Position numbers and translations under genes: made by a program
Part shown: positions 1,077 to 14,103 of the stretch, in pieces
How positions within the stretch are numbered: the first letter of the stretch is position 1
How the letters are laid out: each line of letters starts with the position of its first letter
Source of the DNA: an uncultured Muribaculaceae bacterium
Lineage (GTDB): Bacteria; Bacillota_I; Bacilli_A; RF39; UBA660
Direction: 5' to 3'
Length of the DNA stretch: 32,499 bases
Assembly (NCBI GenBank): GCA_964551265.1
Contig: CAZKBC010000001.1
Location: 1 to 32,499 of the forward strand
Notes under the pieces: generated by a model
Seen by the model: only the letters and a program-made list of their open reading frames with translations
Told to the model about the DNA's origin: nothing
The model's database searches: none

Positions 1077-4000
1077 ATGCAATTGCTATTAATTAAAAAA
1101 GATAAAATTGATACTATTAAATTGCCCTCAAACATATTTGGGAGTTATTGGATTGTAGATAGAATAAACTCTAAAAGAAACAATAATCTTATTAATGTAT
1201 TTGAAGAAAATGGCAAATGGAAGATAGTAAGTAATGAAGAAACAAAAATATTAGAAAGCAGCGGAATGGTTGTTGAATCAGCTATATTGACAGAATATAG
1301 TTTTTATTATATTCAAACTAAGGAAAAAACTATATATATTCTTTACTCTTGTCCTGTATATGATAAGAGTACTATTCAATTATCTTTTGCGAATGTTTCA
1401 GAAATCAATATAGGTAGTGAAAATACAAATGAAATAGTATATAATCTTCAAGTTATTGGAAAACAAAATACTAAGTTATTATATAAAGATAATATATGGA
1501 AAATTATTGACTTAGATAGTAAATTTGGGACATATTTAAACGGAATATCTATCAGAGAAACAATATTAAATAACGGAGATGTAATATTTATAATGGGTTT
1601 AAAAATTACTTTATTAGGTAATACTTTATTAATTAACAATCCTTTTAATGCTGTTTCTTATAATCAAAATATATTTACTATAGCTAAACCAATTACTATG
1701 GAATATGTTGAAATTAATGAAGAGGATGAACTTGTAGAGTTGTATAAAGAAGAAGATTATTTTTTAAGATCACCAAGATTTAAAACAATGATTGAAAAAG
1801 AAGTCTTAGTTATTGATCCACCCCCATCAAAGGAAAATACTGAAGAATTGCCTTTAATGTTCGTAGTTGGACCTATGCTTTCAATGAGCATGATGTCTTT
1901 AATGACTGTTTTTACTTCTTTGAATAGATTTTTATCTGGTGAAGCAGAGTTTAAAACTGTATTACCCTCTTTAATAGTGGCTTTTGCAATGATGCTTAGT
2001 ATGATATTATGGCCTTTATTAAATAAAAAATATCAAAAAAAGAAAAAGCAAGAATATGAAAGAGAAAGACAAAAAAAATATGGAGGATATATTGATTCTA
2101 GAAGAGAACAACTAGAAGCAATATCAAGGAAACAAAAGCAAATATTAATTGAGAATTATTTGCCAGCTCCTACTTGTGAGAATATAATTATTAATAGAAA
2201 TAGACAATTATGGGAAAGAAAAATAGATCAACCGGATTTCTTAGCAACCAGATTAGGAATAGGTAATACCCCATTAGAAGTTGATATAAGGTATCCTGAG
2301 ACTCATTTTGCTATGGATGAAGATAATTTAAAAGATGAATTAAATAGAATGGTTAATGTATCAAAAGATTTAAAAGATGTTCCAATAAGTATTTCTTTTT
2401 TAGAAAAGAACTATTCGGCAATAGTTGGTAAAAGAAATCTAACAAACGAATTTATGAAAGAAATATTATTACAATTTGTAACTTTTCATAGTTTTGAAGA
2501 TTTAAAATTAGTATTCTTAATGGATAAAGAATACGAAGATGATTGGGAATTTTTGAAACCTATACCTCATATTTGGTCAGATGATAAAACTATTAGGTAT
2601 TTTGCAACCGGTTATGAAGAAATGAAAGAATTATCTTCTGTTTTAGAACAAGAATTACAAGAAAGAACAAGTTCTGAGGGATCTTCCTCAAAAGATTATA
2701 AATCCTTTTACCCATATTATATAATTATTACAAACAACTATACGATTTCAAAAAACATTAAAATATTAAATGATGTTTTAAAGCAAAAAGTTAACTATGG
2801 ATATAGCGTTATAGTAATAAATGAAACTTTATCTAGTTTACCTAATGAGTGTACAACATTTATTAGTATAGATAGTAGTAAGGGCGGAGTATTTGAAAGT
2901 GAATTAATATCTACAAAACAAAAAGAATTCTTTTTAGATAAACCTTCTTTAGCAAATATGAAAGATAGTGTTTATACATTGGCAAATACGCCTCTAAAGT
3001 TAACAAAAGAGATGTATTCTTTACCGAAAGTATATTCATTTTTAGAAATGTTTGAAGTTGGTAAAGTAGAACAATTAAATGCTCTGTATAGATGGAAAAC
3101 AAATAATTCAATTATGTCATTACAAACACCTATTGGTATAGATAGTCATGGAATGATTTCAAGATTAGATGTGCATGAAAAAGCACATGGGCCTCATGGA
3201 CTTATTGCGGGAATGACTGGTTCTGGAAAGAGTGAATTGATAATTACTTATATTGTATCTTTAGCTGTTAATTATCATCCAGATGATGTGTCTTTTGTAT
3301 TAATAGATTATAAAGGTGGTTTTTTAGTAGGAGCTTTACAAAATAATGAAACTGGAATAAAATTACCACACTTAGCGGGGTCAATTACTAACCTTGATAC
3401 TGTAGAAATGAATAGATCTTTACTTTCAATTCAAAGTGAATTAAAAAGAAGACAAAGATTATTTAATGAAGTAAGAGAAGAATTAAATGAAAGTACAATG
3501 GATATTTATAAATATCAAAAGCTATATCATGAAGGGTTAATTAAAGAACCTATACCTCATTTGTTAATAATATCAGATGAGTTTGCAGAGTTAAAAACAC
3601 AACAAGCTGAGTTTATGGATCAATTAATAAGTACTGCTCGTATAGGCCGTAGTTTGGGAGTTCATTTAATATTAGCAACTCAAAAACCTTCTGGAGTAGT
3701 TAACGATCAAATTTGGAGTAATAGTAGATTTAAAATATGTTTAAAAGTACAAGAAAAATCAGATAGTATGGATGTAATTAAGTCTCCAGATGCAGCTAGT
3801 TTAACTCATGTTGGAAGATATTACTTGCAAGTTGGATATAATGAATATTTTTCTTTAGGACAATCTGCTTGGACCGGTGCACAATATATACCATCAGATA
3901 AAATAAAAAAAGAAGTTGATACCTCAATAGATTTTATTAATAATATAGGAGAAATAATTAAAGAAGTTGAAGAACAAAAAAAGAATCAAAAAGCATCTGA

Positions 4001-5687
4001 GGGAGATCAATTAACTTCTGTAGTTAAATATTTATCTAATTTAGCAAAAAAAGAAAACATAAAAATAAAACAATTATGGTTAGATAGAATACCAGAGAAA
4101 ATATTTGTAGATAAATTAACTCAAAAATATGATTATAAAACTTCTACGGGTATAATTAATCCAATAATTGGAGAGTTTGATGATCCATTTAATCAAAGTC
4201 AAGGATTATTAACTTTACCATTATCAACTGAAGGAAACGTAATTATTTATGGTGCTGCTGACAGTGGAAAAGAGTTATTACTAAATAGTTTAATATATTC
4301 TACTATAATAAGTCATACGGTAAATGAAGTAAATTTTTACATAATGGATTTTGGAACAGAATCATTAAGAATATTTTCTGAAGCTCCACATGTAGGAGAT
4401 GTGTTATTCTCAGATGATGTTGAAAAAATAAATAATATATTTAAGATGATTAGAAAAGAGATAAATTCTAGAAAGAAAATATTTGCGGATTATTATGGTG
4501 ACTATCAATATTTTATAAAAAATAGTGGAAAAATGTTGCCAACAATTGTAATAATAATTAATAACTTTGAAGCATTTCAAGAAACTTATGTTAATTTTGA
4601 AGAAGAAATTCTTCAACTTACAAGAGAAGGTTTAAAATATGGAATAGTATTTGTATTAACAGTTACAACTTCAAATGCTATAAGATATAAACTAGCAAAG
4701 AACTTTAGACAAAAATTATCTTTACAATTAAATGATGATAATGATTATTCTAATATATTTGATAGAGTAAAAGATAAACTTCCTTCTAAAGTATATGGAA
4801 GAGGATTAATAGAATTATCTGCTCTACATGAATTTCAAACTGCTTTTGTTAAGGATGTTGAGAATGTTAACGAATATATTATTAACGAATGTAAAGAGTT
4901 AAAAAATAAATCAAAAATAGTGGCAGATAAAGTTATGGTTTTACCTGAAAGAGTAACATTAAAGATGATTTCTCAAGATTTCAAGGGTATTACATCTGTT
5001 CCAATAGGAATTGAAAAAGAGAATTTAGAAATTTCAAGCTATAATTTTGGAAGCAGTATAGCAACCATTATGTCATCTCAAGATTTTGCGGCATCATCTA
5101 AGTTTATAAATTCATTTATTGCGCAATTATGCAAACAAGATGTAGCAGACTTAGTAGTGGTTGATAATGATGAATTATTGGAAACTAACGATATACAAGG
5201 TATGAAATACTATAAGTCGGATGCAAATCAATTTTTTGAAGATTTTAAGACAATAATAAATGAACAATATGAATTATATAAAACAAATAATTACAGTAAA
5301 AAAATATTAGATACATACAAGAATAAAATTGTGGTAATTATAGGGTTAGAAAAGTTTAAAACTAGATTAAAAGATGAAAATCAAAAGGGCCTAGAAGAAT
5401 TTTTTACAAAGTCACAAGAAATGATGAAGCAAGTGTATATATTTGTAGAAAATGTTGACAAACTTAAGAAATTAGAATACGATAATTGGTATAGGAGTAT
5501 AATTAATTCAAACCAAGGAATTTGGTTGGGAAATGGAATAGCAGATCAATTTGCTATTAAGTTAGTTAAAGTTGGAAAAGAACTTTATCAAGATATTGGA
5601 AGTGGATTTGGTTACAATGTAATAAGAGGTGTACCAACACTTGTAAAACTTGTTGAAGATGAAGATGGATATGGTGAAGTATTATGA
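1077..5687 (+). CDS. essC: T7SSb FtsK/SpoIIIE-family translocase ATPase EssC (YukB-like)
   Basis: 1536 aa. The N-terminal ~200 aa has the FHA-like character of EssC (…GTYLNGISIRETILNNGDVIFIMGLKITL…). Two hydrophobic TM segments follow (LPLMFVVGPMLSMSMMSLMTVF, LPSLIVAFAMMLSMILWPLL). Three P-loop modules follow: D1 Walker A GMTGSGKSE (3210-3236) with Walker B LLIISDEFAEL, D2 GAADSGKE (4251-4274), and a degenerate D3. The ATGA stop/start overlaps the yukD-like gene. Confidence 0.93.
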   Translation: MQLLLIKKDKIDTIKLPSNIFGSYWIVDRINSKRNNNLINVFEENGKWKIVSNEETKILESSGMVVESAILTEYSFYYIQTKEKTIYILYSCPVYDKSTIQLSFANVSEINIGSENTNEIVYNLQVIGKQNTKLLYKDNIWKIIDLDSKFGTYLNGISIRETILNNGDVIFIMGLKITLLGNTLLINNPFNAVSYNQNIFTIAKPITMEYVEINEEDELVELYKEEDYFLRSPRFKTMIEKEVLVIDPPPSKENTEELPLMFVVGPMLSMSMMSLMTVFTSLNRFLSGEAEFKTVLPSLIVAFAMMLSMILWPLLNKKYQKKKKQEYERERQKKYGGYIDSRREQLEAISRKQKQILIENYLPAPTCENIIINRNRQLWERKIDQPDFLATRLGIGNTPLEVDIRYPETHFAMDEDNLKDELNRMVNVSKDLKDVPISISFLEKNYSAIVGKRNLTNEFMKEILLQFVTFHSFEDLKLVFLMDKEYEDDWEFLKPIPHIWSDDKTIRYFATGYEEMKELSSVLEQELQERTSSEGSSSKDYKSFYPYYIIITNNYTISKNIKILNDVLKQKVNYGYSVIVINETLSSLPNECTTFISIDSSKGGVFESELISTKQKEFFLDKPSLANMKDSVYTLANTPLKLTKEMYSLPKVYSFLEMFEVGKVEQLNALYRWKTNNSIMSLQTPIGIDSHGMISRLDVHEKAHGPHGLIAGMTGSGKSELIITYIVSLAVNYHPDDVSFVLIDYKGGFLVGALQNNETGIKLPHLAGSITNLDTVEMNRSLLSIQSELKRRQRLFNEVREELNESTMDIYKYQKLYHEGLIKEPIPHLLIISDEFAELKTQQAEFMDQLISTARIGRSLGVHLILATQKPSGVVNDQIWSNSRFKICLKVQEKSDSMDVIKSPDAASLTHVGRYYLQVGYNEYFSLGQSAWTGAQYIPSDKIKKEVDTSIDFINNIGEIIKEVEEQKKNQKASEGDQLTSVVKYLSNLAKKENIKIKQLWLDRIPEKIFVDKLTQKYDYKTSTGIINPIIGEFDDPFNQSQGLLTLPLSTEGNVIIYGAADSGKELLLNSLIYSTIISHTVNEVNFYIMDFGTESLRIFSEAPHVGDVLFSDDVEKINNIFKMIRKEINSRKKIFADYYGDYQYFIKNSGKMLPTIVIIINNFEAFQETYVNFEEEILQLTREGLKYGIVFVLTVTTSNAIRYKLAKNFRQKLSLQLNDDNDYSNIFDRVKDKLPSKVYGRGLIELSALHEFQTAFVKDVENVNEYIINECKELKNKSKIVADKVMVLPERVTLKMISQDFKGITSVPIGIEKENLEISSYNFGSSIATIMSSQDFAASSKFINSFIAQLCKQDVADLVVVDNDELLETNDIQGMKYYKSDANQFFEDFKTIINEQYELYKTNNYSKKILDTYKNKIVVIIGLEKFKTRLKDENQKGLEEFFTKSQEMMKQVYIFVENVDKLKKLEYDNWYRSIINSNQGIWLGNGIADQFAIKLVKVGKELYQDIGSGFGYNVIRGVPTLVKLVEDEDGYGEVL

Positions 5688-5932
5688 ATAAAATCTTTGT
5701 AATCTTATATGTTCCATCGATTGGTGAAAAATATGAAATGTTTCTACCAATTAGTAAGAAAATAGGAACTATAGCAAAACTATTAACTAAATCGGTAAAC
5801 GAATTATCTGATGGAACATTTCCAATTAAAGAATCTCTCCTATACGATAAAAAAGATGGCAAAATATACGATTTAAACATCACAGTTAAAGAATCAAACA
5901 TAAGGAACGGTTCTGAAATAATATTAATTTAA
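5684..5932 (+). CDS. esaB: YukD/EsaB-like small ubiquitin-fold T7SS protein
   Basis: 82 aa, with a 4-nt ATGA overlap with essC. The C-terminus …NIRNGSEIILI resembles the …GITNGDxLxIL ending of EsaB/YukD. Size and position are typical. Confidence 0.7.
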   Translation: MNKIFVILYVPSIGEKYEMFLPISKKIGTIAKLLTKSVNELSDGTFPIKESLLYDKKDGKIYDLNITVKESNIRNGSEIILI

Positions 5933-5950
5933 GTAAGGAGGTGAAGAAAG

Positions 5951-6253
5951 ATGAATACAAATATTATGTTAAATCCTGCAGCTCTTGGAGATGAAATTAA
6001 TGCAATAAATGCACTTAAAGAAAGCGCATTAACAGTAATAACTGAAACTCAAAAAGCAATAGTTGAGTTAACTGGACCAAGTGGTGGACTATCAAGTCCA
6101 GAAGGAGGAAAGTTAGCAACTACTTATACTGAAAAAGCTAATAAAATGTTAAACGATTTAGATTCTTTCGTACAAGAATATACTACTGCATTAAATAACG
6201 CTGCACAAAACTTAATTAATGCTAGTGCTACTAACTTTAGTAATATAGGTTAA
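5951..6253 (+). CDS. WXG100-like ~100 aa helical hairpin protein (degenerate W-x-G: P-E-G at the turn)
   Basis: Strong RBS AAGGAGGTG 8 nt upstream. 100 aa with two predicted helices separated by a Gly/Pro turn (GPSGGLSSPEGGK). It sits next to essC/esaB. There is no literal WXG. Confidence 0.55.
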   Translation: MNTNIMLNPAALGDEINAINALKESALTVITETQKAIVELTGPSGGLSSPEGGKLATTYTEKANKMLNDLDSFVQEYTTALNNAAQNLINASATNFSNIG

Positions 6254-6273
6254 AAAAAGGAGGGAATAATTAT

Positions 6274-6540
6274 ATGTTAGATATTAATATAGGCGCAATT
6301 GAAGCTAAAATAACTGCTTTAAATGCTAAGAACGATGAATTAATGAGATTATTAGAACAAATTAATACAAAGTTTGAAGGTGTTCAAGGGATTGCAAGCC
6401 GTGACGTACTTAAAATAAAAGATAAATATACTGCTGCAAAAGCATCTCAAGTTAACTTGAGAGAAGCTCTAGCATCGATTGTGGCATATTTAGGAAAAGT
6501 AAAAACAAATTACGAAGAATCAACAAATACAGTAAGATAG
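6274..6540 (+). CDS. Small helical T7SS-associated protein (WXG100-like or Lap-like; F-E-G at the mid-point)
   Basis: RBS AAGGAGGG. 88 aa, all-helical composition, with FEGVQG at aa 34-39 where WXG normally sits. It is paired with the preceding 100-aa gene. Confidence 0.45.
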   Translation: MLDINIGAIEAKITALNAKNDELMRLLEQINTKFEGVQGIASRDVLKIKDKYTAAKASQVNLREALASIVAYLGKVKTNYEESTNTVR

Positions 6541-6559
6541 TTCTCTATTTATAGAGACT

Positions 6560-6602
6560 ATTTCTAATTAAATAGTCTATATTTAATTAGAAATGGTTTT
6601 TA
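6560..6602 (+). terminator. Intrinsic terminator/attenuator-like hairpin between the small esx-like genes and the giant gene
   Basis: Perfect 14-bp stem ATTTCTAATTAAAT (6560-6573) / ATTTAATTAGAAAT (6581-6594) with a 7-nt loop, followed by GGTTTTTA. The stem is almost all A-T, so it is weak. Confidence 0.45.
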
Positions 6603-6611
6603 TAAGAAAGA

Positions 6612-9600
6612 GTGGTGCGAATGAAAAAGGGTTTGATGAAAGTAGATTTTGTAAGTGTAAAAGCTTACTCAGACAAGTTGAAAGCAAAGGCTGAAGAAAT
6701 AAATGTTAGCTTTGTTGCTCCAACAAGTATGCCAATAATAAGTGTGGGATTAGTTCCTACATATTTTACTGATTTCTCAGATGCTATTAAGAGATTTAAT
6801 TTATATTTAACAAACCTTTCTGACGCAGTTGCTAAGTATCATGATGGTTTGGCTTCAATTGAAGGATATGCAACGGAACAAGGACCTGCGGTTGGAGATG
6901 ATCCTGGTTATTCACCAGGAGGCAATAATCCACCAGGAGAAGGAACCCCACCAGGAGTAGTAGTTCCACCAGGAGGATCAGTTCCTCCACCAACAGTACC
7001 TATTGAAATTCCACCTGGACTAATGCAATTATCTGGATATGCAGCATTAGGCCCTAATGCTTCTATGAGCGATATAATGGCCTCTATAGGAGCAATTGCA
7101 GCTGGGCTTGGCATTTCTGTATCAGACTTATTTTCGGGCGAATATAACCACTTAATAAGCCAAATACTTGGTGCTGCTACAAACAATGCAGTATTTATAG
7201 CAACTATAACTCAATTAGGAGAATCTGCATTACAAGCTTATTTAAAACAATTAATGAGTGCTTCAAGTCAACCTACATTTATGGTACCTATTGCAGAATT
7301 CCTTAAGTATTTAGCAAAATTTAAAGATTCTAAATTAAGTACAATAATGAATGATCCAAAATATGCAATTGATATTAAAACAGCTCTTCAAGATCATAGA
7401 GTATCTTTAGTCAACTTAAATGATTTAGGAAGTAAAGGTGCTATAGATGTTCAAGGAGAATTAAAAAATATAATTACTGGTAATAATCAAGGATCTGTAA
7501 AAGTAGATCCAATTACTACTGAAATATTAAAAGATTATCTAACAGGTGTTGCTCAAAAGAATAATATTACACTTGATCAATTATTAAATGATGCAAAATA
7601 TGCAGATTTAGCAAAGACTGCTCTAAATGAATTTTTAAAATTCTGGTTATATGGTGATCAATCCGGATTATTATTTGCTGGGTTAGCTATTGTAAACGGA
7701 AATATGGTAAGTACGCTTGCCCCAATTCAAATATCTAAAGAAGATTTAGAAAAATCAGGATATACTGAGTTAAGAGTTGGTGCATCAAGAGAAGATGTTA
7801 ATGCATCTTTAGCGGCTATTTTAGCAAAATTAGGACTTACTACTGAAGATTTATATTCTGGAAAATATAATAATTTATTAACTCAAATACTAAATAATTC
7901 TTCATCAACGTCAACTTTTATATATACAGTAAATCAACTTGATGAACAAAATCTACAAGCATATTTAAATGAGTTATATAAAGCAGAATCTACTCCAAAA
8001 CATTTTGTTCCTGTTTCATCTTATTTAAGTTACCTAGCAAAAGAACAAGGAACAGATATGAATGGTTTATTAACAGATGATAAATATGCTAGTTTAATAA
8101 AAGGATCTTTAGATTTACATAGAAATTCTCTTGTTAATCTAAATGGATTGAATCAACAAGAAATTACTACTATTCAAAAAGAATTAAATCAAATTATGTT
8201 ACCTGAGGGAACTGAAGAATATAATGTTGATAATGTTACTAAAAAAATGTTAGAAGACTTCTTAAAATCAGTTGCTGATAAAAATAAAATTTCATTGAAC
8301 GATATGTTAACTCAAGACAAATATGCACAGTTAACTAAAGATTCTTTAAATGAATTTTTAAAGTTCCAATTACATGGTGATGATAATAGTTTACCAACTG
8401 CCGGATTAATTCAAGAGTTAAATAATGTAGCAGTAGAAAATAATACTACAACTGAAAACATATTAAATGGTAACAATAATGATGCATTATCAAACTACAT
8501 ATCAAATACAGATAATAATACTAATGTATCAGAAGTAATTAATAATATGGATGATAAAGGATTACAAAATTTTGTTGGAGAAATAGTAAATGAAAATAAG
8601 CATCCAGAAGTGGTTGCTAATCCGGTAATACAAAAGGTTGTTCAAACCATTTATAGAAATACTGAATATATAAAAGGAAATACAAATGAAATGGTAACTC
8701 TTCCAAAAGAAGAGATTGTAGAAGAAATAAAAATAGAAGAACTTCCAAAAGAAGAGATTAAAGAAATATTAACTAAAGAAGAATATGCCCCTAAAATAAA
8801 AGAGGTAGTTCAAACAACTAACTCGTTTAATTGGGCTGGTTTGTTTCCTCTTGCTGGATTAGGATTGATTCCATTAATAGTAGCTTTGAAAAAAAGAGAT
8901 AAGGGTAATGGAGAAGAAATAGCGTATGTAAGCGATGCAAAAAAAGGCTTAATAGACGCTAATTTTACTTATTTTGCTGATTCAAATATAGTTAGTGAAG
9001 AATCATTATTAGATGGAAGTAATTTCGAATTATTATCTATATATTTAAGTCAATTAGATAGTTTAAGTGCTGTATTAAATGTACTTGCTAATATGAAAGA
9101 TGATAATTTACAAAAATATTTATTACAATTATATAATTTAAAATTTGAACATGTTTGGAGTGGTAATTCATTAATAATTAAGATATTATTTAATGATTTA
9201 TCAAGAATTGCTTCAAAACAAGGTATCGATTTATCCACATTATTATCTAATTCAAACTATGTTGTATGGGTTAAAACATCAATTGTAGATATAGCAAAGA
9301 TGTATACAAAATATGAAGAAGATATAAATACAAGTGGTGGTTTTAAATTATTCTTAAGCAGTGTTTTAGGAAAATCAATAATAGTAAATCAAGAAAACTA
9401 TCAAATATTAAATACATTCTTAGAATTAAGTGCTAAGAATTTAGGAATAAATATTGAAGCTTTATTAAATCAAATATCAGAATTTAATAATAAACTTACA
9501 ATATTTGCAATTATTAGATATGGAGAAGGAGTAAAACCTTATTTATTTGGTTTTATTAACTCTTTATATCAAGAAATTCCAAATGATAAAGAATATGATA

Positions 9601-11609
9601 ATCTAAGTAAAACTGAATTTGATGAAAGAGTTTTAACTGATTTAGGATATCTATCTTTATTATTTAATTCAACAGATGAGCAAATAGAAAAAACTATAGA
9701 TAAAGTTTTAGAAAAATATAAGATTTCAAAAAGCGATCTATATGGTGGTAATAAAGAAAACTTTTTTAATAATTTAATTAATAAATCTAACAATTTAACT
9801 TTAACATTATATCTATTAACTAAAATGGATGCATTTAAATTACAATTTTATTTACATACATTGCAAACAACTTCAAATGATAACAAATTAATATTAATTA
9901 CAATGAAATTTTTAGAATATTTAGCAAAATCAGAAAATACGAATATTGATAGTCTATTGACTGATATTAAATACGCAAATATTATTAAAGATGCATTAAC
10001 AAACTTTAAAAAATCAGTTTTAGGTATTTATTCATTAAGCAAAAAAGATGATATGTCGCTTAATGAACAAATAAACAATTTATTCTTTATGGAAGATATT
10101 AGTCCATATGGAATGGATAAGATAACAGTTGAAATGCTAAAAGAAATGTTATCAAATTTAGCAAAAACTAAAGAAATAGGTTTTAATTCTTTACTTGATA
10201 TAAAAAATATTACAACCCTTAGAGAATTTATAGAAAAGATTATTGGAATAATAATGTTTATAAGTAAAGTTCAAAATAAAGATTCCTCTTCAAATAATCT
10301 TTCAAAATTACCAGACCAAACTATAAAACAAGATTCGACTCCTAAACCTATAGAAGATAAATTAGGTGGTTTTGCTAATGTAAGTAGAGTAAGTAAAGAA
10401 TCACTATTAGATGGATCTAATTTAGGACTACTTACTGTTTATTTACAAAAACTTGATAATATAAATGCTGTAATTGATGTATTAGTAGAAATGAAAGATA
10501 ATGTTCTTCAAGTATATTTAAAAGAACTATATTCTAAATCATTTAATAATAAATTCATTCAAATGATATTAAAATTTTTAGGATATTATGCAACTTCTGA
10601 GAATACAAACTTAGAATCATTATTATCTGATCCTAAATATGCATCAAGTATTAAAGCGGCTCTTAAGGATTTTGGAAAATCTATATTAAATTTTAATTCA
10701 TTAAGTAAGATAGATCACAATGAATTAAATAAAGAAATAAATAATTTGTTTATCTCTGAAAATACCTCTATATATGGAATTGATAAAGTTACTCGAGAAA
10801 TGGTTAAATTAATGTTATCAGAGTCAACAAATACTGATAATGTGGATATCAATTCATTATTAGACCCAAAAAATTCAAATGTATTGAAGAAATTATTACA
10901 AAGAGTTATTAATAATATTATGTTTCTTAATGTAGAAACTAAAGAAAACCTTAATGTAAATATTTCTCCAAATAATATGAGTACAAATAAAGAAGATATT
11001 ATAAAATCATTGCAATTAGCATTTAGAAACGAATCGGTTGGAGACCCTATATTAAAGACTAAACTAAAGAATTATATGACTATAATGAATATTGATTCAG
11101 GTTTAACATTTGAAGAATATTTATATGCACAAGAGTTTAATAATTTTATAAAAATTAATTTTGATAATTCAAATATATTAACTTTAATATATACTTATTT
11201 AGGATCAGGAATTAATTACAATTTTGATATTAGTAGGAAGTTTGAAGAAATAGCTAGTAAAAATAGTCTTAATTTAAGTGAATTAAAATCTGTTAATGGA
11301 GTAAGTTTCATAGTAGAAAACATAATAAAAGAAAACAATATATTATTCACTTTAGAATCTATTCTTAATACAGATAAAGAAGTATCTTATGCTACAATAA
11401 AAAATTTATATAATATAAAAGAAAACTCAAATATTAATAAATTATTTGAATATATCGATGAAAACTTAAAAAGGCCAAAAAACAAATTGTTAGAAGAATT
11501 TTTAGAAGAAGAACAAAACTTAAAAGCAATAGTTCAATTCTTATTAAAAATATTAGTAATATTATTAATGTTAATGTTACTCTCTAACAAAAAAGAAGAG
11601 GTGAAATAA
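6612..11609 (+). CDS. Giant (1665 aa) modular T7SS-associated protein: WXG/LXG-like helical N-terminus, PPG linker, five copies of a ~180-225 aa module, two TM-plus-basic-tail segments
   Basis: A single uninterrupted ORF. The track start is GTG 6612, but ATG 6621 (MKKGLMKVDF…), preceded by GAGTGGTG, is the more likely start. See the repeat features for internal structure. Hydrophobic segments lie at 8832-8888 (WAGLFPLAGLGLIPLIVAL, then KKRDKG) and 11529-11585 (IVQFLLKILVILLMLMLLS, then NKKEEVK). The stop shares one nt with the next ATG. Confidence 0.8.
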   Translation: MVRMKKGLMKVDFVSVKAYSDKLKAKAEEINVSFVAPTSMPIISVGLVPTYFTDFSDAIKRFNLYLTNLSDAVAKYHDGLASIEGYATEQGPAVGDDPGYSPGGNNPPGEGTPPGVVVPPGGSVPPPTVPIEIPPGLMQLSGYAALGPNASMSDIMASIGAIAAGLGISVSDLFSGEYNHLISQILGAATNNAVFIATITQLGESALQAYLKQLMSASSQPTFMVPIAEFLKYLAKFKDSKLSTIMNDPKYAIDIKTALQDHRVSLVNLNDLGSKGAIDVQGELKNIITGNNQGSVKVDPITTEILKDYLTGVAQKNNITLDQLLNDAKYADLAKTALNEFLKFWLYGDQSGLLFAGLAIVNGNMVSTLAPIQISKEDLEKSGYTELRVGASREDVNASLAAILAKLGLTTEDLYSGKYNNLLTQILNNSSSTSTFIYTVNQLDEQNLQAYLNELYKAESTPKHFVPVSSYLSYLAKEQGTDMNGLLTDDKYASLIKGSLDLHRNSLVNLNGLNQQEITTIQKELNQIMLPEGTEEYNVDNVTKKMLEDFLKSVADKNKISLNDMLTQDKYAQLTKDSLNEFLKFQLHGDDNSLPTAGLIQELNNVAVENNTTTENILNGNNNDALSNYISNTDNNTNVSEVINNMDDKGLQNFVGEIVNENKHPEVVANPVIQKVVQTIYRNTEYIKGNTNEMVTLPKEEIVEEIKIEELPKEEIKEILTKEEYAPKIKEVVQTTNSFNWAGLFPLAGLGLIPLIVALKKRDKGNGEEIAYVSDAKKGLIDANFTYFADSNIVSEESLLDGSNFELLSIYLSQLDSLSAVLNVLANMKDDNLQKYLLQLYNLKFEHVWSGNSLIIKILFNDLSRIASKQGIDLSTLLSNSNYVVWVKTSIVDIAKMYTKYEEDINTSGGFKLFLSSVLGKSIIVNQENYQILNTFLELSAKNLGINIEALLNQISEFNNKLTIFAIIRYGEGVKPYLFGFINSLYQEIPNDKEYDNLSKTEFDERVLTDLGYLSLLFNSTDEQIEKTIDKVLEKYKISKSDLYGGNKENFFNNLINKSNNLTLTLYLLTKMDAFKLQFYLHTLQTTSNDNKLILITMKFLEYLAKSENTNIDSLLTDIKYANIIKDALTNFKKSVLGIYSLSKKDDMSLNEQINNLFFMEDISPYGMDKITVEMLKEMLSNLAKTKEIGFNSLLDIKNITTLREFIEKIIGIIMFISKVQNKDSSSNNLSKLPDQTIKQDSTPKPIEDKLGGFANVSRVSKESLLDGSNLGLLTVYLQKLDNINAVIDVLVEMKDNVLQVYLKELYSKSFNNKFIQMILKFLGYYATSENTNLESLLSDPKYASSIKAALKDFGKSILNFNSLSKIDHNELNKEINNLFISENTSIYGIDKVTREMVKLMLSESTNTDNVDINSLLDPKNSNVLKKLLQRVINNIMFLNVETKENLNVNISPNNMSTNKEDIIKSLQLAFRNESVGDPILKTKLKNYMTIMNIDSGLTFEEYLYAQEFNNFIKINFDNSNILTLIYTYLGSGINYNFDISRKFEEIASKNSLNLSELKSVNGVSFIVENIIKENNILFTLESILNTDKEVSYATIKNLYNIKENSNINKLFEYIDENLKRPKNKLLEEFLEEEQNLKAIVQFLLKILVILLMLMLLSNKKEEVK
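6912..7001 (+). repeat. 18-nt (hexapeptide) tandem repeat encoding SPGGNN-PPGEGT-PPGVVV-PPGGSV-PPPTVP
   Basis: CCACCAGGAG recurs at 6930, 6948 and 6966, with TCACCAGGAG at 6912, giving a period of 18 nt. This is a locally GC-rich island inside AT-rich DNA. Confidence 0.85.
7020..8408 (+). repeat. Two tandem copies (7020-7686, 7731-8408) of a ~225-aa protein module (A1/A2)
   Basis: The copies align by eye over their full length. Matching blocks include SDLFSGEYNHLISQIL / EDLYSGKYNNLLTQIL, LQAYLKQL / LQAYLNEL, FLKYLAK / YLSYLAK, NDPKYAIDIKTAL / TDDKYASLIKGSL, HRVSLVNLNDL / HRNSLVNLNGL, DAKYADLAKTALNEFLKFWLYGD / QDKYAQLTKDSLNEFLKFQLHGD and LLFAGL / LPTAGL. Confidence 0.9.
8700..8783 (+). repeat. 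Two 42-nt units encoding LPKEEIVEEIKIEE / LPKEEIKEILTKEE
   Basis: The 18-nt string CTTCCAAAAGAAGAGATT occurs at 8700-8717 and 8742-8759, just upstream of the internal TM segment. Confidence 0.85.
8991..10943 (+). repeat. Three further diverged copies of the same module family (B1 8991-~9530, B2 9723-~10283, B3 10387-10943)
   Basis: B1 and B3 open with VSEESLLDGSNFELLSIYLSQLDSLSAVLNVLANMKDDNLQKYL / VSKESLLDGSNLGLLTVYLQKLDNINAVIDVLVEMKDNVLQVYL. B2 and B3 share MKFLEYLAKSENTNIDSLLTDIKYANIIKDAL / LKFLGYYATSENTNLESLLSDPKYASSIKAAL and LNEQINNLFFMEDISPYGMDKITVEMLKEML / LNKEINNLFISENTSIYGIDKVTREMVKLML. B2 starts with SDLYGGNKENFFNNLIN, matching the A-module SDLFSGEYNHLISQIL. Confidence 0.8.
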
Positions 11610-11917
11610 TGGAATCTGTTTATGTAAATTTTGATGCAATTGATTCTAGTAATCTTGCTTTAATAAAGGATTATAACAGCGTAGTAGAACAAGCTGAAAG
11701 ATTAAAACAAATAGTTGATTCTGTCGATGTAAGTTGGGTAGATAAAATAGTTAGTTCATCCGAAAAATATAAAGATTATACATTGTTGATGATAAATGAT
11801 ATTATTATGAATTTAGATGAATTAAAAAACCTAATGACTAATGTTGGAATAGCAATGGAAGAATATACTAATAATGAAACGACAGGGGAAACAAATATAA
11901 ATAGTGTAAGTTTTTAA
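11609..11917 (+). CDS. WXG100-like ~100 aa helical protein (W-V-D at the hairpin position)
   Basis: 102 aa. RBS GAGGTG, and the ATG shares one nt with the stop of the giant gene. SWVDK at aa 42-46 sits where WXG is expected. Composition is helical. Confidence 0.5.
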   Translation: MESVYVNFDAIDSSNLALIKDYNSVVEQAERLKQIVDSVDVSWVDKIVSSSEKYKDYTLLMINDIIMNLDELKNLMTNVGIAMEEYTNNETTGETNINSVSF

Positions 11918-11928
11918 TAGGAGGCTTT

Positions 11929-13341
11929 ATGCAATATACTGATTATGACAAATACAAAACAGCTATTGAGAGTACTGATTTTAATCAATTAAATACTCTT
12001 TTAGCAAATATAAACTCAATAGAAAGTGATTTTGTTAATAAAATTGATGTTGATGCTAGTTGGGAAAGTAGTGTTAAAGTAGCTTTAATTGATAAAATTA
12101 ATAGTTTTAAAACTGAGTTTAGAAAGCTGTCTTTAGAATCAACAAATTTAAACAACATTGTTACATTATCAGACGAATTAAAAACTAAAATTATTGAATA
12201 TAAGAGATTAAATACTGAAATAAACAGACTAAACGGAGAATTAAGCACTGCAGAAAGCCATAATAAAAAAGTTAATGATGCAAATAATAGCACATCGTCA
12301 TTTTCTTCAACTGGAGGTACTCAATATGGTGGAAGAGGTGGGAGTCTTGATAACTTGATTCCTGATTCTACAATTAATTCTTTAAAAACTCAAATTAAAA
12401 CAAATACTAGCAATTATAATTCTATTCAACAAGAAATAGAATCATTAATTAAAAAATTACAAGCAATTGAATTTGGAAAGGCTGGAATTGCTCAAACAGC
12501 TTCTTCTACAGGAACTACTGCTCAAGTAGGACCAAGCGGGCAAACAATTGGTAACTTAGATGCAGCTACATTAGTTGCTACTGGAAGTGGTGATTACAAC
12601 GCTATATTTGCTAAACAATTTGAACAACCAATACAATCTAATATTGAAGCTCTTCACTTAAGTCAATTAAGTATAAGTGGAAGTGCCGGATTAGCAAGCG
12701 TTGTTATTACAAATATGCCAGGAACAACAGATAAAAATCAAATGGTAGCAATAGATTTAGCAACTTTAGTATTACCTAAATTGAACGCTCAAAGAGAACT
12801 TGCTGATGAAGCTTTACAACAACAAAAGGATTTATTACAAAGAACAAAAGATCAAAATTTCAATAAGTTTTGGCCCGGACAAAATGATGGAGATATAAGA
12901 GAATTAGCGGTTGCTAGAGATAATGAAACTGATCCGGTTATAATTGCAGAATACAATAAGAAAATTGAAGCAGCTGTTGAAAAGTTTAATAAAGAAAATG
13001 CTAACTTAATACCTATTGAAAATGTATTGGAGCCAGTATTAACTACAACTGTTGCTGGAAATATTCCAATTCCACCAGCAGTTAAAGAGACTCAAGTATT
13101 GTCTTTATTTACAGAGAGCCTATATAATAGTCCTCCACCTGATACAACTATGAGAACTCTTACTGATTCAAGTGGAAATATTACAGGATACGAAATAGTC
13201 GATAATAGAGTCGAAAATTCTTCTCAAACTTATACATTAAATATAGCAAATGATGGATATCAATTATCAACAGGAGATCAAGGAACATATTTTTATCCTA
13301 AAAGTAATACTATCAACGATTTAAGTTCACCAAAAAATTAA
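11929..13341 (+). CDS. 470-aa putative T7SS substrate: WXG/LXG-like helical N-terminal ~110 aa (…DASWESSVKVAL…), Gly/Ser-rich linker, C-terminal domain of unknown function
   Basis: RBS TAGGAGG. It has no signal peptide and no TM. The N-terminal coiled-coil-like region has W-E-S at aa 44-46. No toxin or enzyme motif was recognised in the C-terminal ~300 aa. Confidence 0.5.
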   Translation: MQYTDYDKYKTAIESTDFNQLNTLLANINSIESDFVNKIDVDASWESSVKVALIDKINSFKTEFRKLSLESTNLNNIVTLSDELKTKIIEYKRLNTEINRLNGELSTAESHNKKVNDANNSTSSFSSTGGTQYGGRGGSLDNLIPDSTINSLKTQIKTNTSNYNSIQQEIESLIKKLQAIEFGKAGIAQTASSTGTTAQVGPSGQTIGNLDAATLVATGSGDYNAIFAKQFEQPIQSNIEALHLSQLSISGSAGLASVVITNMPGTTDKNQMVAIDLATLVLPKLNAQRELADEALQQQKDLLQRTKDQNFNKFWPGQNDGDIRELAVARDNETDPVIIAEYNKKIEAAVEKFNKENANLIPIENVLEPVLTTTVAGNIPIPPAVKETQVLSLFTESLYNSPPPDTTMRTLTDSSGNITGYEIVDNRVENSSQTYTLNIANDGYQLSTGDQGTYFYPKSNTINDLSSPKN

Positions 13342-13386
13342 AATTCAAATGATGAAATTAATTAATAATATAATAAGAATTTTTAT

Positions 13387-13417
13387 AAACAATTTTCTTT
13401 TTGAAAATTGTTTTTTT
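13387..13417 (+). terminator. Rho-independent terminator closing the T7SS gene string
   Basis: AAACAATTTTC (13387-13397), a TTTTT loop, then GAAAATTGTTT (13403-13413), followed by TTTT. Confidence 0.8.
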
Positions 13418-13432
13418 GTGCTACAATTCCAA

Positions 13433-13461
13433 TTGTATTAAGTATTAATTTATGATAAAAT
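13433..13461 (+). promoter_or_regulatory. sigma-A-type promoter with extended -10
   Basis: TTGTAT (13433-13438), a 17 nt spacer, then TAAAAT (13456-13461), preceded by TGa. Confidence 0.5.
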
Positions 13462-13482
13462 TATAGTAGGAGGATGTGTGAT

Positions 13483-14103
13483 ATGGCAAAAATACTAGAC
13501 TATTTAGTGGAAAATTATATATATGTTGCGGCAATATCTGGTTTTTTTATAATAGTGTTAATTGGCTTTTTAGTAAAAGATAGAAAAAAGGGAAAAAATA
13601 AAAAAGATAAAGAAGAAAAAAATGAAAGTAATATAAATATTGTTGATAATAAACCAATAGATATACAAAATACTGAGACTAATGAGAGTATTGTTACAAA
13701 AATTGAAGAAAGTGCTGGTACAGAACCAAAGATGGATTTTGTAAAAACAATTGAAGAGAATGTAGGATCCCCTGTTGTAGAAGTAAAGGAAATTGAAGTT
13801 CCAACTGAACCAACTCTTTCAGTTGTAGAATCCTCAAGTTTTGAGATTAATAATCAAACTTATAGTATCAATGATGTTGAACCATCTAACAATAAATTTC
13901 AAGTTGTATTAGATGCAAAAGAAACAGTAAGCGAAGTTGAACCAACAGTAGTTGATAATAAAGTCGAAGTTTTCGATTTAGATGATACAGTTGTATTAAA
14001 TAAGAAAAAATTGGATGATGAAGTAGATATTATTGACTTTAGTGATATAAATAAATTTGAATCTCACGATGATATTCCTAACCCAATTATTAAAGATAAT
14101 TAG
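13483..14103 (+). CDS. N-terminally membrane-anchored, highly acidic low-complexity protein of unknown function
   Basis: The ORF track starts at 13474, but that ATG abuts the AGGAGG (13468-13473). The in-frame ATG at 13483 has 9-nt spacing. One TM (YIYVAAISGFFIIVLIGFLV) is followed by a KDRKKGKNKKDKEEK stop-transfer stretch and an E/D/V/N-rich tail. Confidence 0.6.
   Translation: MAKILDYLVENYIYVAAISGFFIIVLIGFLVKDRKKGKNKKDKEEKNESNINIVDNKPIDIQNTETNESIVTKIEESAGTEPKMDFVKTIEENVGSPVVEVKEIEVPTEPTLSVVESSSFEINNQTYSINDVEPSNNKFQVVLDAKETVSEVEPTVVDNKVEVFDLDDTVVLNKKKLDDEVDIIDFSDINKFESHDDIPNPIIKDN

What the first reader, a model, noticed from the sequence alone, without database searches (positions are those of the whole stretch)
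6612..11609. 1665-aa giant T7SS-associated protein built from five copies of an unrecognised module
The protein has no signal peptide. It opens with a ~95-aa helical WXG/LXG-like region, followed by a PPGxxx hexapeptide linker and then five copies of a ~180-225-aa module. The module has a recurring core: L-Q-x-Y-L-x2-L … [FY]-L-x-Y-L-A-K … L-L-x-D-x-K-Y-A-x2-[IL]-K-x-[AS]-L … (I/V)-[DT]-x2-T-x-E-M-L-K. The copies lie at 7020-7686, 7731-8408, 8991-~9530, 9723-~10283 and 10387-10943. I recognise no toxin, enzyme or adhesin domain in it. It is translationally coupled to the next esx-like gene, and two small helical proteins precede it. That layout matches LXG effectors with their Lap/targeting partners, but the size, repeat architecture and two TM segments are unlike known T7SSb toxins. 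It could be a new class of T7SS cargo that ends up anchored on the surface or in a target membrane. It could equally be a structural appendage of the apparatus.
Basis: partly seen in the sequence, partly recalled or inferred. Interest (0 to 1): 0.7.

Follow-up and report, generated by a model that had tools for sequence, protein, structure and literature searches.

The report
Giant membrane-anchored helical-repeat T7SS protein
This 1662-residue gene is real and is the giant, membrane-anchored form of an unannotated protein family that always sits beside the type VII secretion ATPase in a group of uncultured low-GC gut Bacilli; its fold matches no solved structure and its job is still unknown.

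Summary
It has an about 90-aa helical hairpin, a P/G linker, five about 220-aa modules plus two partial copies, and two conserved hydrophobic helices.

The ORF is not an assembly artefact. DNA repeats are at most 42 nt, and four orthologous lineages keep the same layout.

Each module is three copies of an about 70-aa unit with the motif YLxxxAxxNxIxxxxLLxDxKYA. AlphaFold2 folds one module confidently (pLDDT 90.5, pTM 0.88, all-alpha). Foldseek, Pfam, NCBIfam and PDB sequence searches find nothing. Tandem modules are joined by disordered linkers, like beads on a string.

An exhaustive HMM search finds 115 clusters. Most are soluble 350-520-aa proteins with the same hairpin, linker and repeats. 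In 16 of 16 loci of the giant and about 500-aa classes that have upstream DNA, the gene directly follows essC and an 82-aa gene. Small WXG100-like genes flank it.

The N-domain aligns end to end with WXG100 (hhalign 72 %) but is not an LXG domain.

Best reading: a T7SS-exported, surface-tethered appendage or cargo. This is inferred, not shown. An apparatus role is the main rival. I rate it a new variant of a known kind.

The parts
3..1004 (+). 3' part of a gene cut by the window start. It encodes an alpha/beta-hydrolase (esterase-like) domain. The full-length orthologue (L001, 401 aa) has a WXG-like helical N-terminus. Candidate T7SS substrate.
   Evidence: Pfam Esterase 1.7e-5. The reading frame is open to the window edge. 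The L001 orthologue is 37 % identical and has the N-terminus ...SSWSSS.... 0 Cys.
1077..5687 (+). EssC, the T7SSb-type FtsK/SpoIIIE ATPase with an N-terminal FHA domain.
   Evidence: TIGR03928 1015.9 bits (cut-off 778.4), PF01580, PF00498. It is 82 % identical to L001 EssC and 53-54 % to the EssC of the ~500-aa-class loci.
5684..5932 (+). 82-aa protein in the EsaB/YukD position. Its start overlaps the essC stop. Identity as a ubiquitin-like protein is inferred, not shown.
   Evidence: It follows EssC in every related locus with enough upstream DNA and is 50-84 % identical there. No Pfam or PDB hit.
5951..6253 (+). 100-aa helical protein. Candidate WXG100-superfamily partner (Lap-like).
   Evidence: DUF5344 E 0.001. 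Orthologues hit PE at 0.0012 and WXG100 at 1.5e-4 to 0.03. It is among the four best WXG100-HMM hits of all window ORFs.
6274..6540 (+). 88-aa helical protein. Candidate WXG100-superfamily partner.
   Evidence: WXG100 E 0.018. Orthologues score 3.8e-5 to 0.065.
6541..6620 (+). Conserved intergenic element: palindrome GTCTCTAT-tt-ATAGAGAC, then a 12-14-bp AT-rich hairpin, a T-run and the RBS. Possible leaky terminator/attenuator or operator in front of the giant gene.
   Evidence: RNA fold z -4.0 to -6.7 in all five giant-class loci. The alignment keeps the stems while the loops vary.
6621..6896 (+). N-domain of the giant protein (aa 4-95 of the 1665-aa translation): a helix-turn-helix hairpin, WXG100-like, with a GL turn in place of WxG.
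   Evidence: The family N-domain HMM scores E 2e-18 and is found in 88 of 114 family representatives. hhalign against bona fide WXG100 gives 72 %, P 3.4e-5, over 81 columns; reversed decoys give P 0.03-0.04. No LXG hit.
6897..7028 (+). Pro/Gly-rich low-complexity linker (aa 96-139).
   Evidence: Sequence. It is 20-23 % identical between orthologues. G/P/S/T linkers occupy the same position across the family.
7029..7697 (+). Module 1 (aa 140-362).
   Evidence: HMM E 3.7e-93 (seed member); self-BLAST against m2 gives E 1e-29.
7752..8414 (+). Module 2 (aa 381-601), the one modelled.
   Evidence: AF2 pLDDT 90.5, pTM 0.88, 13 helices. No Foldseek match in PDB or BFVD.
8415..8612 (+). Partial module (aa 602-667): the first sub-repeat only.
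   Evidence: HMM E 1.6e-9. It is also present in both orthologues.
8826..8891 (+). Hydrophobic helix 1 (aa 739-760, WAGLFPLAGLGLIPLIVAL), followed by KKRDK. The helix is near-invariant; its region is among the best conserved (73 % over aa 736-765).
   Evidence: KD hydropathy. The region aa 736-765 is 73 % identical to the orthologues and the helix itself is near-invariant. A basic cluster of 4-6 K/R follows in all five two-TM giants.
8949..9515 (+). Module 3 (aa 780-968). It is a divergent module but the most conserved between orthologues.
   Evidence: HMM E 5e-15. It is 72-73 % identical between orthologues, against 43-55 % for the other modules.
9666..10328 (+). Module 4 (aa 1019-1239).
   Evidence: AF2 pLDDT 80-95 within the two-module model.
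10332..11006 (+). Module 5 (aa 1241-1465).
11007..11513 (+). C-terminal region (aa 1466-1634). Probably a degenerate module.
   Evidence: Weak HMM matches at 1539-1632 (E 0.28 in the window, 0.0024 in P0003). A DNA/peptide echo of the module start is seen (D6).
11520..11585 (+). Hydrophobic helix 2 (aa 1637-1658), followed by NKKEEVK at the C-terminus.
   Evidence: KD hydropathy up to 2.8. It is conserved in P0002, P0003, P0017 and P0018. P0020 has only this one.
11609..11917 (+). 102-aa helical protein. Its start overlaps the giant's stop (TAATG). WXG100-like.
   Evidence: Sequence. WXG100-HMM E 0.002 within the window. The L010 orthologue hits WXG100 at 0.0011.
11929..13341 (+). 470-aa protein with a helical N-terminus, a G/S-rich linker and an unknown C-terminal domain. 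Candidate further substrate.
   Evidence: It is the best WXG100-HMM hit among all window ORFs (E 1.8e-4). 0 Cys. Conserved in L001 and L005. No Pfam or PDB match.
13474..14103 (+). 209-aa protein with one N-terminal TM helix and an acidic low-complexity tail. It is the last gene of the locus before rplM-rpsI.
   Evidence: TM at residue ~10; 41 % identical to the L001 222-aa protein.

Best explanation
The gene encodes the giant, membrane-anchored form of an unannotated protein family that belongs to a distinct lineage of EssC-based type VII secretion loci in uncultured low-GC Bacilli.

**Architecture (shown).**
- An about 90-aa WXG100-like helical hairpin.
- A flexible Gly/Pro-rich linker.
- A variable number of about 70-aa three-helix sub-repeats (YLxxxAxxNxIxxxxLLxDxKYA). 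In this protein they form five independently folding about 220-aa all-alpha modules, plus two partial ones, joined by disordered linkers.
- Only in the giant subclass: one or two strongly conserved hydrophobic helices followed by basic residues.

**Mechanism (inferred).**
- The N-terminal hairpin bundles with the adjacent small WXG100-like proteins (100, 88 and 102 aa) into a composite targeting signal that EssC recognises.
- The chain of helical beads is exported.
- The hydrophobic helix at aa 739-760 acts as a stop or anchor, with its basic cluster on the cytoplasmic side. At least the N-terminal half is then displayed on the producer's surface as a flexible tethered appendage, for binding or recognition of cell envelope, neighbouring cells or host.
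- The location of the second half (modules 3-5) is unresolved.
For: **Locus.**
- EssC is of T7SSb type.
- Gene order is identical in five giant-class loci: EssC, 82 aa, two about 90-100-aa genes, giant, about 100-aa gene.
- All 11 loci of the about 500-aa class that have upstream DNA place the family gene directly after essC and the 82-aa gene, followed by true WXG100 pairs.

**Targeting domain.**
- The N-domain HMM is shared by 88 of 114 family representatives.
- It aligns end to end with WXG100.
- All described T7SS substrates have such a helical domain that pairs with small helical partners (PMC10730906 abstract; PMC11217815).

**Effector-like behaviour of the family.**
- Copies occur outside the essC locus with their own small partner genes (L012, L013).
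- Repeat number varies from 2 to about 13.
- Some members carry enzyme fusions: Phage_lysozyme2 in P0101 (4.7e-25) and a C39-like peptidase in P0093.

**Evolutionary rate.** The giant is 51 % identical between the window and L001. That resembles the other putative substrates (37-64 %) rather than EssC and the 82-aa protein (82-84 %).

**Cysteine content.** There are 0 Cys in 1662 aa, against 0.78 % in the window's housekeeping ORFs. This fits the cysteine exclusion seen in Gram-positive exoproteins (my own knowledge).

**Anchor.** A basic cluster follows helix 1 immediately in all five two-TM giants.

**Shape.** Modules fold independently with disordered linkers.
Against: - Nothing here shows secretion.
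- The N-domain fails the Pfam WXG100 and LXG thresholds, and hhalign probability is only 72 %.
- In the about 500-aa class the gene is invariably present in the core locus, as a machine component would be.
- No EssB, EsaA or EssA is recognisable in any of these loci, so something must fill their roles.
- Helix 1 and module 3 are the most conserved parts (72-73 %). That suggests a specific partner rather than a passive anchor.
- Two 'N-out/C-in'-looking helices cannot both hold in one chain, so the topology is unresolved.
- The Cys-free second half is not independent evidence, because its modules are paralogues of the first half.
- No function is known for the repeat.
Confidence: 0.5

Rival explanations
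1. It is a structural component of a non-canonical T7SS. It would be a membrane-embedded scaffold or envelope-spanning stalk standing in for EsaA/EssB, or for TsdI of T7SSd/e/j. It would contact EssC through helix 1 and module 3, rather than being a cargo.
For: - The family gene is invariably syntenic with essC and the 82-aa gene.
- No EssB, EsaA or EssA is detectable in the loci.
- Helix 1 and module 3 are the most conserved segments.
- There is precedent for a giant (1654-aa), C-terminally anchored component predicted to span the envelope: TsdI (PMC11217815).
Against: - Most family members, including those in the same locus slot, have no TM segment.
- The gene evolves at substrate-like, not EssC-like, rates.
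- The family also occurs away from essC and fused to enzymes.
- Repeat number is highly variable.
- Missing core genes could lie elsewhere in these incomplete MAGs.
Confidence: 0.25
2. It is a cytoplasmic, membrane-tethered adaptor or chaperone scaffold. It would dock on EssC through a substrate-like hairpin and organise or hold other substrates without being exported.
For: - There is no Sec signal.
- The second half would be cytoplasmic if helix 1 obeys the positive-inside rule.
- Helical repeat arrays are common interaction scaffolds (general knowledge).
Against: - There are 0 Cys in 1662 aa against 0.78 % in cytoplasmic ORFs of the same contig.
- The Pro/Gly linkers are typical of exported T7 substrates.
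- Lysozyme and C39-like peptidase fusions in relatives imply an extracytoplasmic site of action.
Confidence: 0.12
3. It is an antibacterial membrane-targeting toxin of the TspA/TelE type. The hydrophobic helices would insert into a competitor's membrane, and the 209-aa TM protein would serve as immunity.
For: - The LXG-like gene layout with small partner proteins.
- Helix 1 is rich in small residues (AGLFPLAGLGL) and strongly conserved.
- T7SSb membrane toxins with glycine-zipper helices exist (PMC10434224).
- A single-TM protein is encoded downstream.
Against: - There is no i,i+4 glycine zipper.
- The hydrophobic helices are not in a polymorphic C-terminal domain.
- The whole protein is collinear across lineages instead of polymorphic.
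- The related about 500-aa proteins in the same slot lack any hydrophobic helix.
- There are no arrays of immunity genes.
Confidence: 0.08
4. It is an assembly artefact or a decaying pseudogene made of collapsed repeats.
For: The gene is long, repetitive and low in GC, and it sits on a MAG contig.
Against: - DNA repeats are at most 42 nt, and the modules are only 18-54 % identical as protein.
- The identical protein occurs in an independent assembly.
- Four further lineages keep an intact ORF with the same order of parts.
- AF2 folds the modules with pLDDT about 90.
Confidence: 0.02

Closest known systems
LXG polymorphic toxins with Lap1/Lap2 partner proteins (T7SSb effectors; Pfam PF04740)
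   Same: - A large protein with an N-terminal helical domain.
- It is encoded next to essC and to one to three small WXG100-related genes, which are thought to form a composite export signal (PMC10730906 and PMC11217815).
   Different: - The N-domain is about 90 aa, not about 200 aa, and gives no PF04740 hit in any relative.
- The body is a conserved helical repeat array, not a polymorphic toxin domain.
- There is no obvious immunity gene.
- It has two hydrophobic helices.
WXG100/EsxA helical hairpins (PF06013)
   Same: The N-domain has the same size and helix-turn-helix layout and aligns end to end by profile-profile comparison. Its GL turn sits on the WxG position.
   Different: There is no Trp in the turn, the match is below the Pfam threshold, and the hairpin is fused to about 1570 further residues.
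TsdI/TseI/TsjI of T7SSd/e/j, and EsaA of T7SSb
   Same: These are very large proteins encoded in T7SS loci (TsdI is 1654 aa) with a C-terminal TM anchor. They are predicted to extend through the envelope (PMC11217815).
   Different: - TsdI has a Sec signal peptide and Ig-like beta domains. This protein has no signal peptide, a WXG-like N-domain and an all-alpha body.
- There is no TIGR/NCBIfam EsaA hit, and only 2 hydrophobic helices.
- Its closest relatives in sister loci are soluble.
Membrane-depolarising T7SSb toxins (TspA, TelE)
   Same: T7SS-linked proteins that contain hydrophobic, small-residue-rich helices (PMC10434224).
   Different: The helices here are conserved and embedded in a collinear, non-polymorphic giant protein. 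There is no GxxxGxxxG zipper.
GerD central core (PF17898) and other 'LLxDPxF/Y' helical proteins
   Same: Motif-level resemblance. Six of 91 relatives hit GerD, best E 1.7e-6, and P0019 gives sub-threshold NCBIfam GerD and SAG1386/EF1546 hits. GerD is an extracytoplasmic, membrane-tethered helical scaffold (my own knowledge).
   Different: The window protein itself does not hit GerD. The modelled module is a globular 13-helix domain, not a trimeric rope. No PDB match was found.

Membership tests
LXG T7SSb effector (PF04740) | N-terminal LXG domain detectable with the family profile | tested here: not met
   No PF04740 hit for the protein, for its N-terminal 100 aa (E up to 10), or for 91 relatives.
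LXG T7SSb effector (PF04740) | Encoded beside small helical Lap/WXG100-like partner genes and linked to essC | tested here: met
   Two small helical genes lie upstream and one overlaps downstream. They give repeated weak WXG100, PE and DUF5344 hits. EssC lies about 0.9 kb upstream of the giant.
LXG T7SSb effector (PF04740) | Polymorphic C-terminal toxin domain with a cognate immunity gene downstream | tested here: not met
   No toxin domain was found. The body is collinear and 43-73 % conserved between lineages. There is no recognisable immunity gene.
LXG T7SSb effector (PF04740) | EssC-dependent secretion | not testable with these tools
   This needs genetics or proteomics in an uncultured organism, or a heterologous system.
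WXG100 superfamily (PF06013) | An about 100-aa helix-turn-helix hairpin matching the family profile | tested here: inconclusive
   There is no Pfam hit. hhalign of 42 N-domains against 12 bona fide WXG100 proteins gives 72 %, P 3.4e-5, over 81 columns, while decoys give P 0.03-0.04. The N-domain HMM weakly hits true WXG100 proteins (E 6e-4 to 0.015).
WXG100 superfamily (PF06013) | W-x-G motif in the turn | tested here: not met
   The turn reads ...ISVGLVPTYF... It has no Trp, and GL aligns at the WxG position.
EsaA/YueB (T7SSb core membrane protein) | Family profile match and a polytopic topology (1 N-terminal plus 5 C-terminal TM helices) | tested here: not met
   No NCBIfam or Pfam hit. There are only two hydrophobic segments and none at the N-terminus. 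The topology criterion rests on my own knowledge of EsaA.
TsdI-type giant T7SS component (PMC11217815) | N-terminal Sec signal peptide, Ig-like domains and a C-terminal TM helix | tested here: not met
   There is no hydrophobic N-terminus. The models are all-alpha. Only the C-terminal TM is shared.
Sortase-type cell-wall-anchored surface protein | Sec signal, plus LPXTG before a hydrophobic segment and a basic tail | tested here: not met
   There is no signal peptide. The residues before helix 1 are ...VVQTTNSFNW and before helix 2 ...EEQNLK, with no LPXTG. Only the hydrophobic-plus-basic layout is shared.
New hairpin-linker-'DxKYA repeat' family (operational, defined here) | N-domain HMM match, at least 2 sub-repeats, and (for the giant and ~500-aa classes) a position directly after essC and the 82-aa gene | tested here: met
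   N-domain E 2e-18. About 15 sub-repeats were found with an HMM built only from distant relatives. Synteny is shown.

The most novel reading that the evidence does not exclude
The hairpin-linker-repeat family is a new core element of a previously undescribed minimal T7SS subtype that would comprise EssC, an 82-aa TsxB-like protein and this family, with no EssB, EsaA or EssA. The system would export part of its own extracellular apparatus. In the giant form, one polypeptide would bridge the cytoplasmic face of EssC (helix 1 plus the highly conserved module 3) and a long, flexible extracellular tether of novel all-alpha beads. It would thus combine the roles of EssB and EsaA in one self-exported protein.
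Probability: 0.15. Interest if true: 0.8.

Novelty: new variant of a known kind. Interest (0 to 1): 0.58.

Why it matters
- **A new T7SS-linked family.** It adds a conserved, structurally new protein family to the components and cargo of type VII secretion. It occurs in a lineage of gut and rumen Bacilli known only from metagenomes.
- **A gap in the locus.** None of the usual T7SSb membrane partners of EssC can be recognised in these loci. Either these bacteria run a much simpler machine, or this family supplies the missing functions.
- **A new fold.** The about 220-aa module is predicted with high confidence yet has no counterpart in the PDB, which makes it a clean target for structure determination.
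- **A tractable question.** The natural series runs from soluble forms with two repeats to a 1662-aa double-anchored giant. This makes it experimentally approachable to ask what a T7SS-linked helical repeat array does.

Tried and rejected
**Searches that found nothing.**
- Pfam and NCBIfam on the whole protein, its N-terminal 100 aa and single modules gave only noise. The weak hits were Cas9_C, ATP-grasp_3, and DUF7307 at 4e-4, below its cut-off.
- PDB sequence search with the protein and with profiles A2 and A6 found nothing.
- Foldseek against PDB (twice) and BFVD gave a best E of 0.16 and TM below 0.3.
- Rfam found nothing in the window.
- Two scans of viral contigs found no relative, so a phage origin was rejected.
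- The promoter/terminator scan gave counts no higher than in shuffled sequence. It also missed the AT-only hairpin.
- The 82-aa protein could not be confirmed as YukD/EsaB by Pfam or PDB sequence search.

**Searches that underperformed.**
- A word-indexed homologue search with the whole protein returned only 3 proteins.
- The same search with a diverse sub-repeat alignment returned only 2, and so was wasted.
- The exhaustive HMM search was needed to find the family.
A narrower alignment gave 9 loci.

**Organism.**
- Exact-sequence cluster look-ups carry no names.
- One related MAG is labelled 'uncultured Muribaculaceae'. I regard that as a binning or label error, given 25 % GC and a Firmicute-type EssC.
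- Another related MAG is labelled 'Bacilli bacterium'.
- A paper search for the SRA study found nothing.

**Other points.**
- Code 4 (Mycoplasma-type) was rejected: TGA ends 3 genes and no in-frame TGA occurs.
- A rigid-rod model of tandem modules was rejected: pTM is 0.48 and the linker pLDDT is 22-33.
- The literature searches found no description of this family. The nearest framework is the T7SSc-j survey.
Full report
**1. The observation**

The ORF listing gives one ORF, 6612..11609 (+), of 1665 aa. The sequence upstream reads GAAAGAGTGGTGCGAATG. The GTG at 6612 therefore lies inside the ribosome-binding site, and the ATG at 6621 is the likely start. The resulting 1662-aa protein is found at 100 % identity in an independent assembly (P0001).

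The N-terminus, MKKGLMKVDFVSVKAYSDKL, has no hydrophobic core, so there is no Sec signal.

Self-BLAST of 120-aa fragments confirms the repeats:
- aa 122-359 match 363-599 at 43-46 % identity (E 1e-29 to 1e-31).
- aa 1019-1240 match 1241-1465 at 45-54 % (E to 2e-35).
- The two pairs match each other at about 30 % (E 1e-15 to 1e-21).
- The region from aa 788 matches module 5 at 37-43 % over its first 100 residues.

A module HMM places five full copies at aa 149-362, 391-601, 780-968, 1019-1239 and 1241-1465. It also finds a partial copy at 602-667 (E 1.6e-9) and a weak degenerate one near 1539-1632.

Kyte-Doolittle windows give two hydrophobic segments, aa 739-760 and 1637-1658. The stop overlaps the next ATG (TAATG).

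The artefact test is negative:
- The longest DNA repeat in the ORF is 42 nt.
- The modules are only 18-54 % identical as protein.
- Orthologues at 50-51 % identity keep the same order of parts.

**2. Anatomy**

An HMM for the about 50-aa core of the sub-repeat was built only from distant relatives. It finds about 15 units in the protein, three per module. Two of each three are canonical (…YLxxxAxxNxIxxxxLLxDxKYAxxxKxxL…) and one is degenerate (…LGLTxEDLYSGxYNxLL…) (internal offsets also).

AlphaFold2 on module 2, with an alignment of the 15 modules of three orthologues, gives pLDDT 90.5 and pTM 0.88, with 13 helices and no strands. Foldseek finds nothing in the PDB (best E 1.3, TM at most 0.26) or in BFVD. 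PDB sequence searches with the protein and with family profiles are empty.

A two-module construct (m4-m5) gives pLDDT 80-95 inside each module. The 30-residue connector scores only 22-33, and pTM is 0.48. The modules are therefore independently folded beads on a flexible string, not a rod. That model also has no PDB neighbour.

Conservation between orthologues is uneven:

| Region | Identity to orthologues |
|---|---|
| P/G linker | 20-23 % |
| N-domain | 38-42 % |
| Modules 1, 2, 4, 5 | 43-55 % |
| First hydrophobic helix region (aa 736-765) | 73 % |
| Module 3 | 72-73 % |

The first helix is followed at once by 4-6 Lys/Arg in all five two-helix giants. The C-terminal helix ends in a short mixed-charge tail. 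The protein has no cysteine in 1662 residues. The housekeeping ORFs of the same window have 0.78 % Cys (44 of 5611) and EssC has 6.

**3. Surroundings**

Upstream lie:
- An esterase-like gene cut by the window edge. Its full-length orthologue carries a WXG-like N-terminus.
- EssC (TIGR03928, 1016 bits against a cut-off of 778, plus an FHA domain).
- An 82-aa gene overlapping the essC stop.
- Two small helical genes of 100 and 88 aa.

Downstream lie:
- An overlapping 102-aa gene.
- A 470-aa gene.
- A 209-aa single-TM gene.
- Then rplM-rpsI and housekeeping genes.

No EssB, EsaA or EssA is detectable.

The small proteins give only sub-threshold hits, but the hits are consistent. They match WXG100 at 3.8e-5 to 0.07, PE at 0.0012 and DUF5344 at 0.001 across orthologues. 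The four best matches of a WXG100 HMM among all six-frame ORFs of the window are the 470-, 102-, 88- and 100-aa genes of this locus.

An 80-nt intergenic element directly upstream of the giant gene is conserved in all five giant-class loci. It consists of a palindrome and an AT-rich hairpin followed by a T-run.

**4. Relatives**

The word-indexed search found only the protein itself and two orthologues. The exhaustive profile search of 1.84 billion cluster representatives found more:
- 115 proteins at E ≤ 1e-3.
- 53 of these at E ≤ 1e-10.

Three of them (P0017, P0018, P0020; 992-1376 aa) share the giant architecture, including the conserved helices. P0020 has only the C-terminal helix.

Most of the rest are soluble proteins of 350-520 aa with the same plan: an about 90-aa N-domain, a G/P/S/T-rich linker and 2-5 sub-repeats. 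One member has about 13 tandem units.

An N-domain HMM matches 88 of the 114 representatives, 75 of them at the extreme N-terminus.

Pfam has no family for 91 of the relatives. The exceptions are weak GerD hits (6 of 91), one Phage_lysozyme2 fusion (P0101, 4.7e-25) and one C39-like peptidase fusion (P0093). NCBIfam has none either.

Genomic context was read for 17 further loci:
- All five giant-class loci show EssC, 82 aa, two small genes, giant, small gene.
- All 11 loci of the about 500-aa class that have upstream DNA show EssC (52-57 % identical to the window's), the 82-aa gene, the family gene, and then bona fide WXG100 pairs. Most of those with enough downstream DNA also show a DUF4176 gene.
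- Other classes lie elsewhere but sit next to small helical or WXG100 genes.
- No relative occurs in viral contigs.

**5. The N-domain**

It gives no LXG or WXG100 Pfam hit. A profile of 42 N-domains aligns end to end (81 columns) with a profile of 12 bona fide WXG100 proteins from the related loci. Probability is 72 % and P is 3.4e-5, and the conserved GL turn falls on the WxG position. Reversed decoys give P 0.03-0.04.

This is moderate, specific support for a WXG100-type hairpin. It is not proof.

**6. Mechanism**

Shown:
- The architecture.
- The family.
- The tight linkage to essC.
- The partner-like small genes.
- The independent folding of the modules.
- The lack of any known fold.

Inferred: the hairpin joins the neighbouring small helical proteins to form the composite signal that EssC recognises, as described for all known T7SS substrates (PMC10730906; PMC11217815). 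The bead chain is then exported and held at the membrane by the conserved helix or helices.

Arguments for cargo or appendage rather than machine part:
- It evolves at a substrate-like rate: 51 % identity between the window and L001, against 82-84 % for EssC and the 82-aa protein.
- The family has variable repeat number, copies away from essC, and enzyme fusions.
- It lacks cysteine.

Arguments for an apparatus role:
- Synteny is invariant.
- EssB, EsaA and EssA are absent from the loci.
- Helix 1 and module 3 are strongly conserved.
- TsdI is a precedent: a 1654-aa anchored component of T7SSd (PMC11217815).

The topology is unresolved. The basic cluster after helix 1 suggests that the N-terminal half is outside and modules 3-5 are inside. 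This would make the protein a bridge between the cytoplasmic face and the surface.

A toxin role is unlikely. The protein is collinear and non-polymorphic, and its small relatives lack hydrophobic helices.

**7. Comparison and novelty**

The protein works most like an LXG-type T7SSb substrate with Lap partners, but it fails the defining LXG-domain and toxin/immunity tests. It resembles TsdI and EsaA only in being a giant anchored protein in a T7SS locus.

The locus does not match the component sets given for T7SSc-j in PMC11217815. The EssC itself scores as T7SSb-type.

I found no description of the family in Pfam, NCBIfam, the PDB or the searchable literature. I rate it a new variant of a known kind, with moderate to high interest. 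The family and the fold are new and well supported. The function remains inference.

Noticed in passing
window 6541-6620 (also L001 9889-10000, L005 1090-1207, L010 3108-3193, L011 5644-5727): A conserved intergenic element lies just upstream of the giant gene. It has the palindrome GTCTCTAT-tt-ATAGAGAC, then a 12-14-bp AT-only hairpin (ATTTCTAATTA…TAATTAGAAAT) with variable loops, then a T-run and the RBS. RNA fold z-scores are -4.0 to -6.7. It could be a leaky terminator/attenuator or an operator. The terminator scan missed it because the stem has no G-C pairs.
   Followed up: partly
window 3-1004 (orthologue L001 3125-4330): The first gene is cut by the window edge. Its 401-aa orthologue combines a WXG-like helical N-terminus (…SSWSSS…) with an alpha/beta-hydrolase (esterase/lipase-like) domain and has 0 Cys. 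It is a likely T7SS-exported hydrolase encoded directly upstream of essC.
   Followed up: partly
window 1077-14103; L001, L007-L009: The T7SS loci of this lineage contain EssC and an 82-aa gene but no recognisable EssB, EsaA or EssA. In L001 the locus is bounded by tex upstream and rplM-rpsI downstream. This may be a minimal or undescribed T7SS subtype, or the missing genes may lie elsewhere in the genome.
   Followed up: partly
window 11929-13341 and 13474-14103: The 470-aa protein has a helical N-terminus that is the best WXG100-HMM hit in the window. It also has a G/S-rich linker, an unknown C-terminal domain and 0 Cys. The 209-aa protein has one N-terminal TM helix and an acidic repetitive tail. 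Both are conserved in L001, and the 470-aa protein also in L005. Neither has an identified function.
   Followed up: partly
window 8689-8772: A 42-nt tandem duplication encodes …LPKEEIVEEIK / …LPKEEIKEILT in the acidic spacer just before hydrophobic helix 1. The spacer length varies between orthologues.
   Followed up: no
window 8925-8963 (aa 772-784) versus 6621-6662: The segment just after helix 1 reads KKGLIDANFTYFA. It resembles the protein's own N-terminus, KKGLMKVDFVSVKA, and the pattern recurs in P0017. It may be a scar of an in-frame fusion of two tandem paralogous genes, each ending in a hydrophobic helix. The stretch is too short to test statistically.
   Followed up: no
L006/L001 (GCA_964428195.1) and L009 (GCA_017477845.1): The MAG that carries the closest orthologue is labelled 'uncultured Muribaculaceae bacterium'. 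That label is inconsistent with a Firmicute-type EssC and about 25 % GC, so it is probably a binning or label error. Another relative's MAG is labelled 'Bacilli bacterium'.
   Followed up: no
relatives P0101, P0093, P0129, P0019 (L013, L014): The hairpin-linker-repeat cassette also occurs in other architectures: behind an N-terminal phage-tail-lysozyme domain (P0101), in front of a C39-like peptidase (P0093), at the C-terminus of a 2338-aa protein (P0129), and as about 13 tandem units flanked by two WXG100 pairs (P0019). These fusions hint at an extracytoplasmic, possibly envelope-directed role.
   Followed up: partly
window 16311-17240 (L001 20073-20999): An Abi_2 (abortive-infection-like) gene sits between rpsI and an htrA-like protease gene. 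It is conserved at the same place in the related MAG.
   Followed up: no
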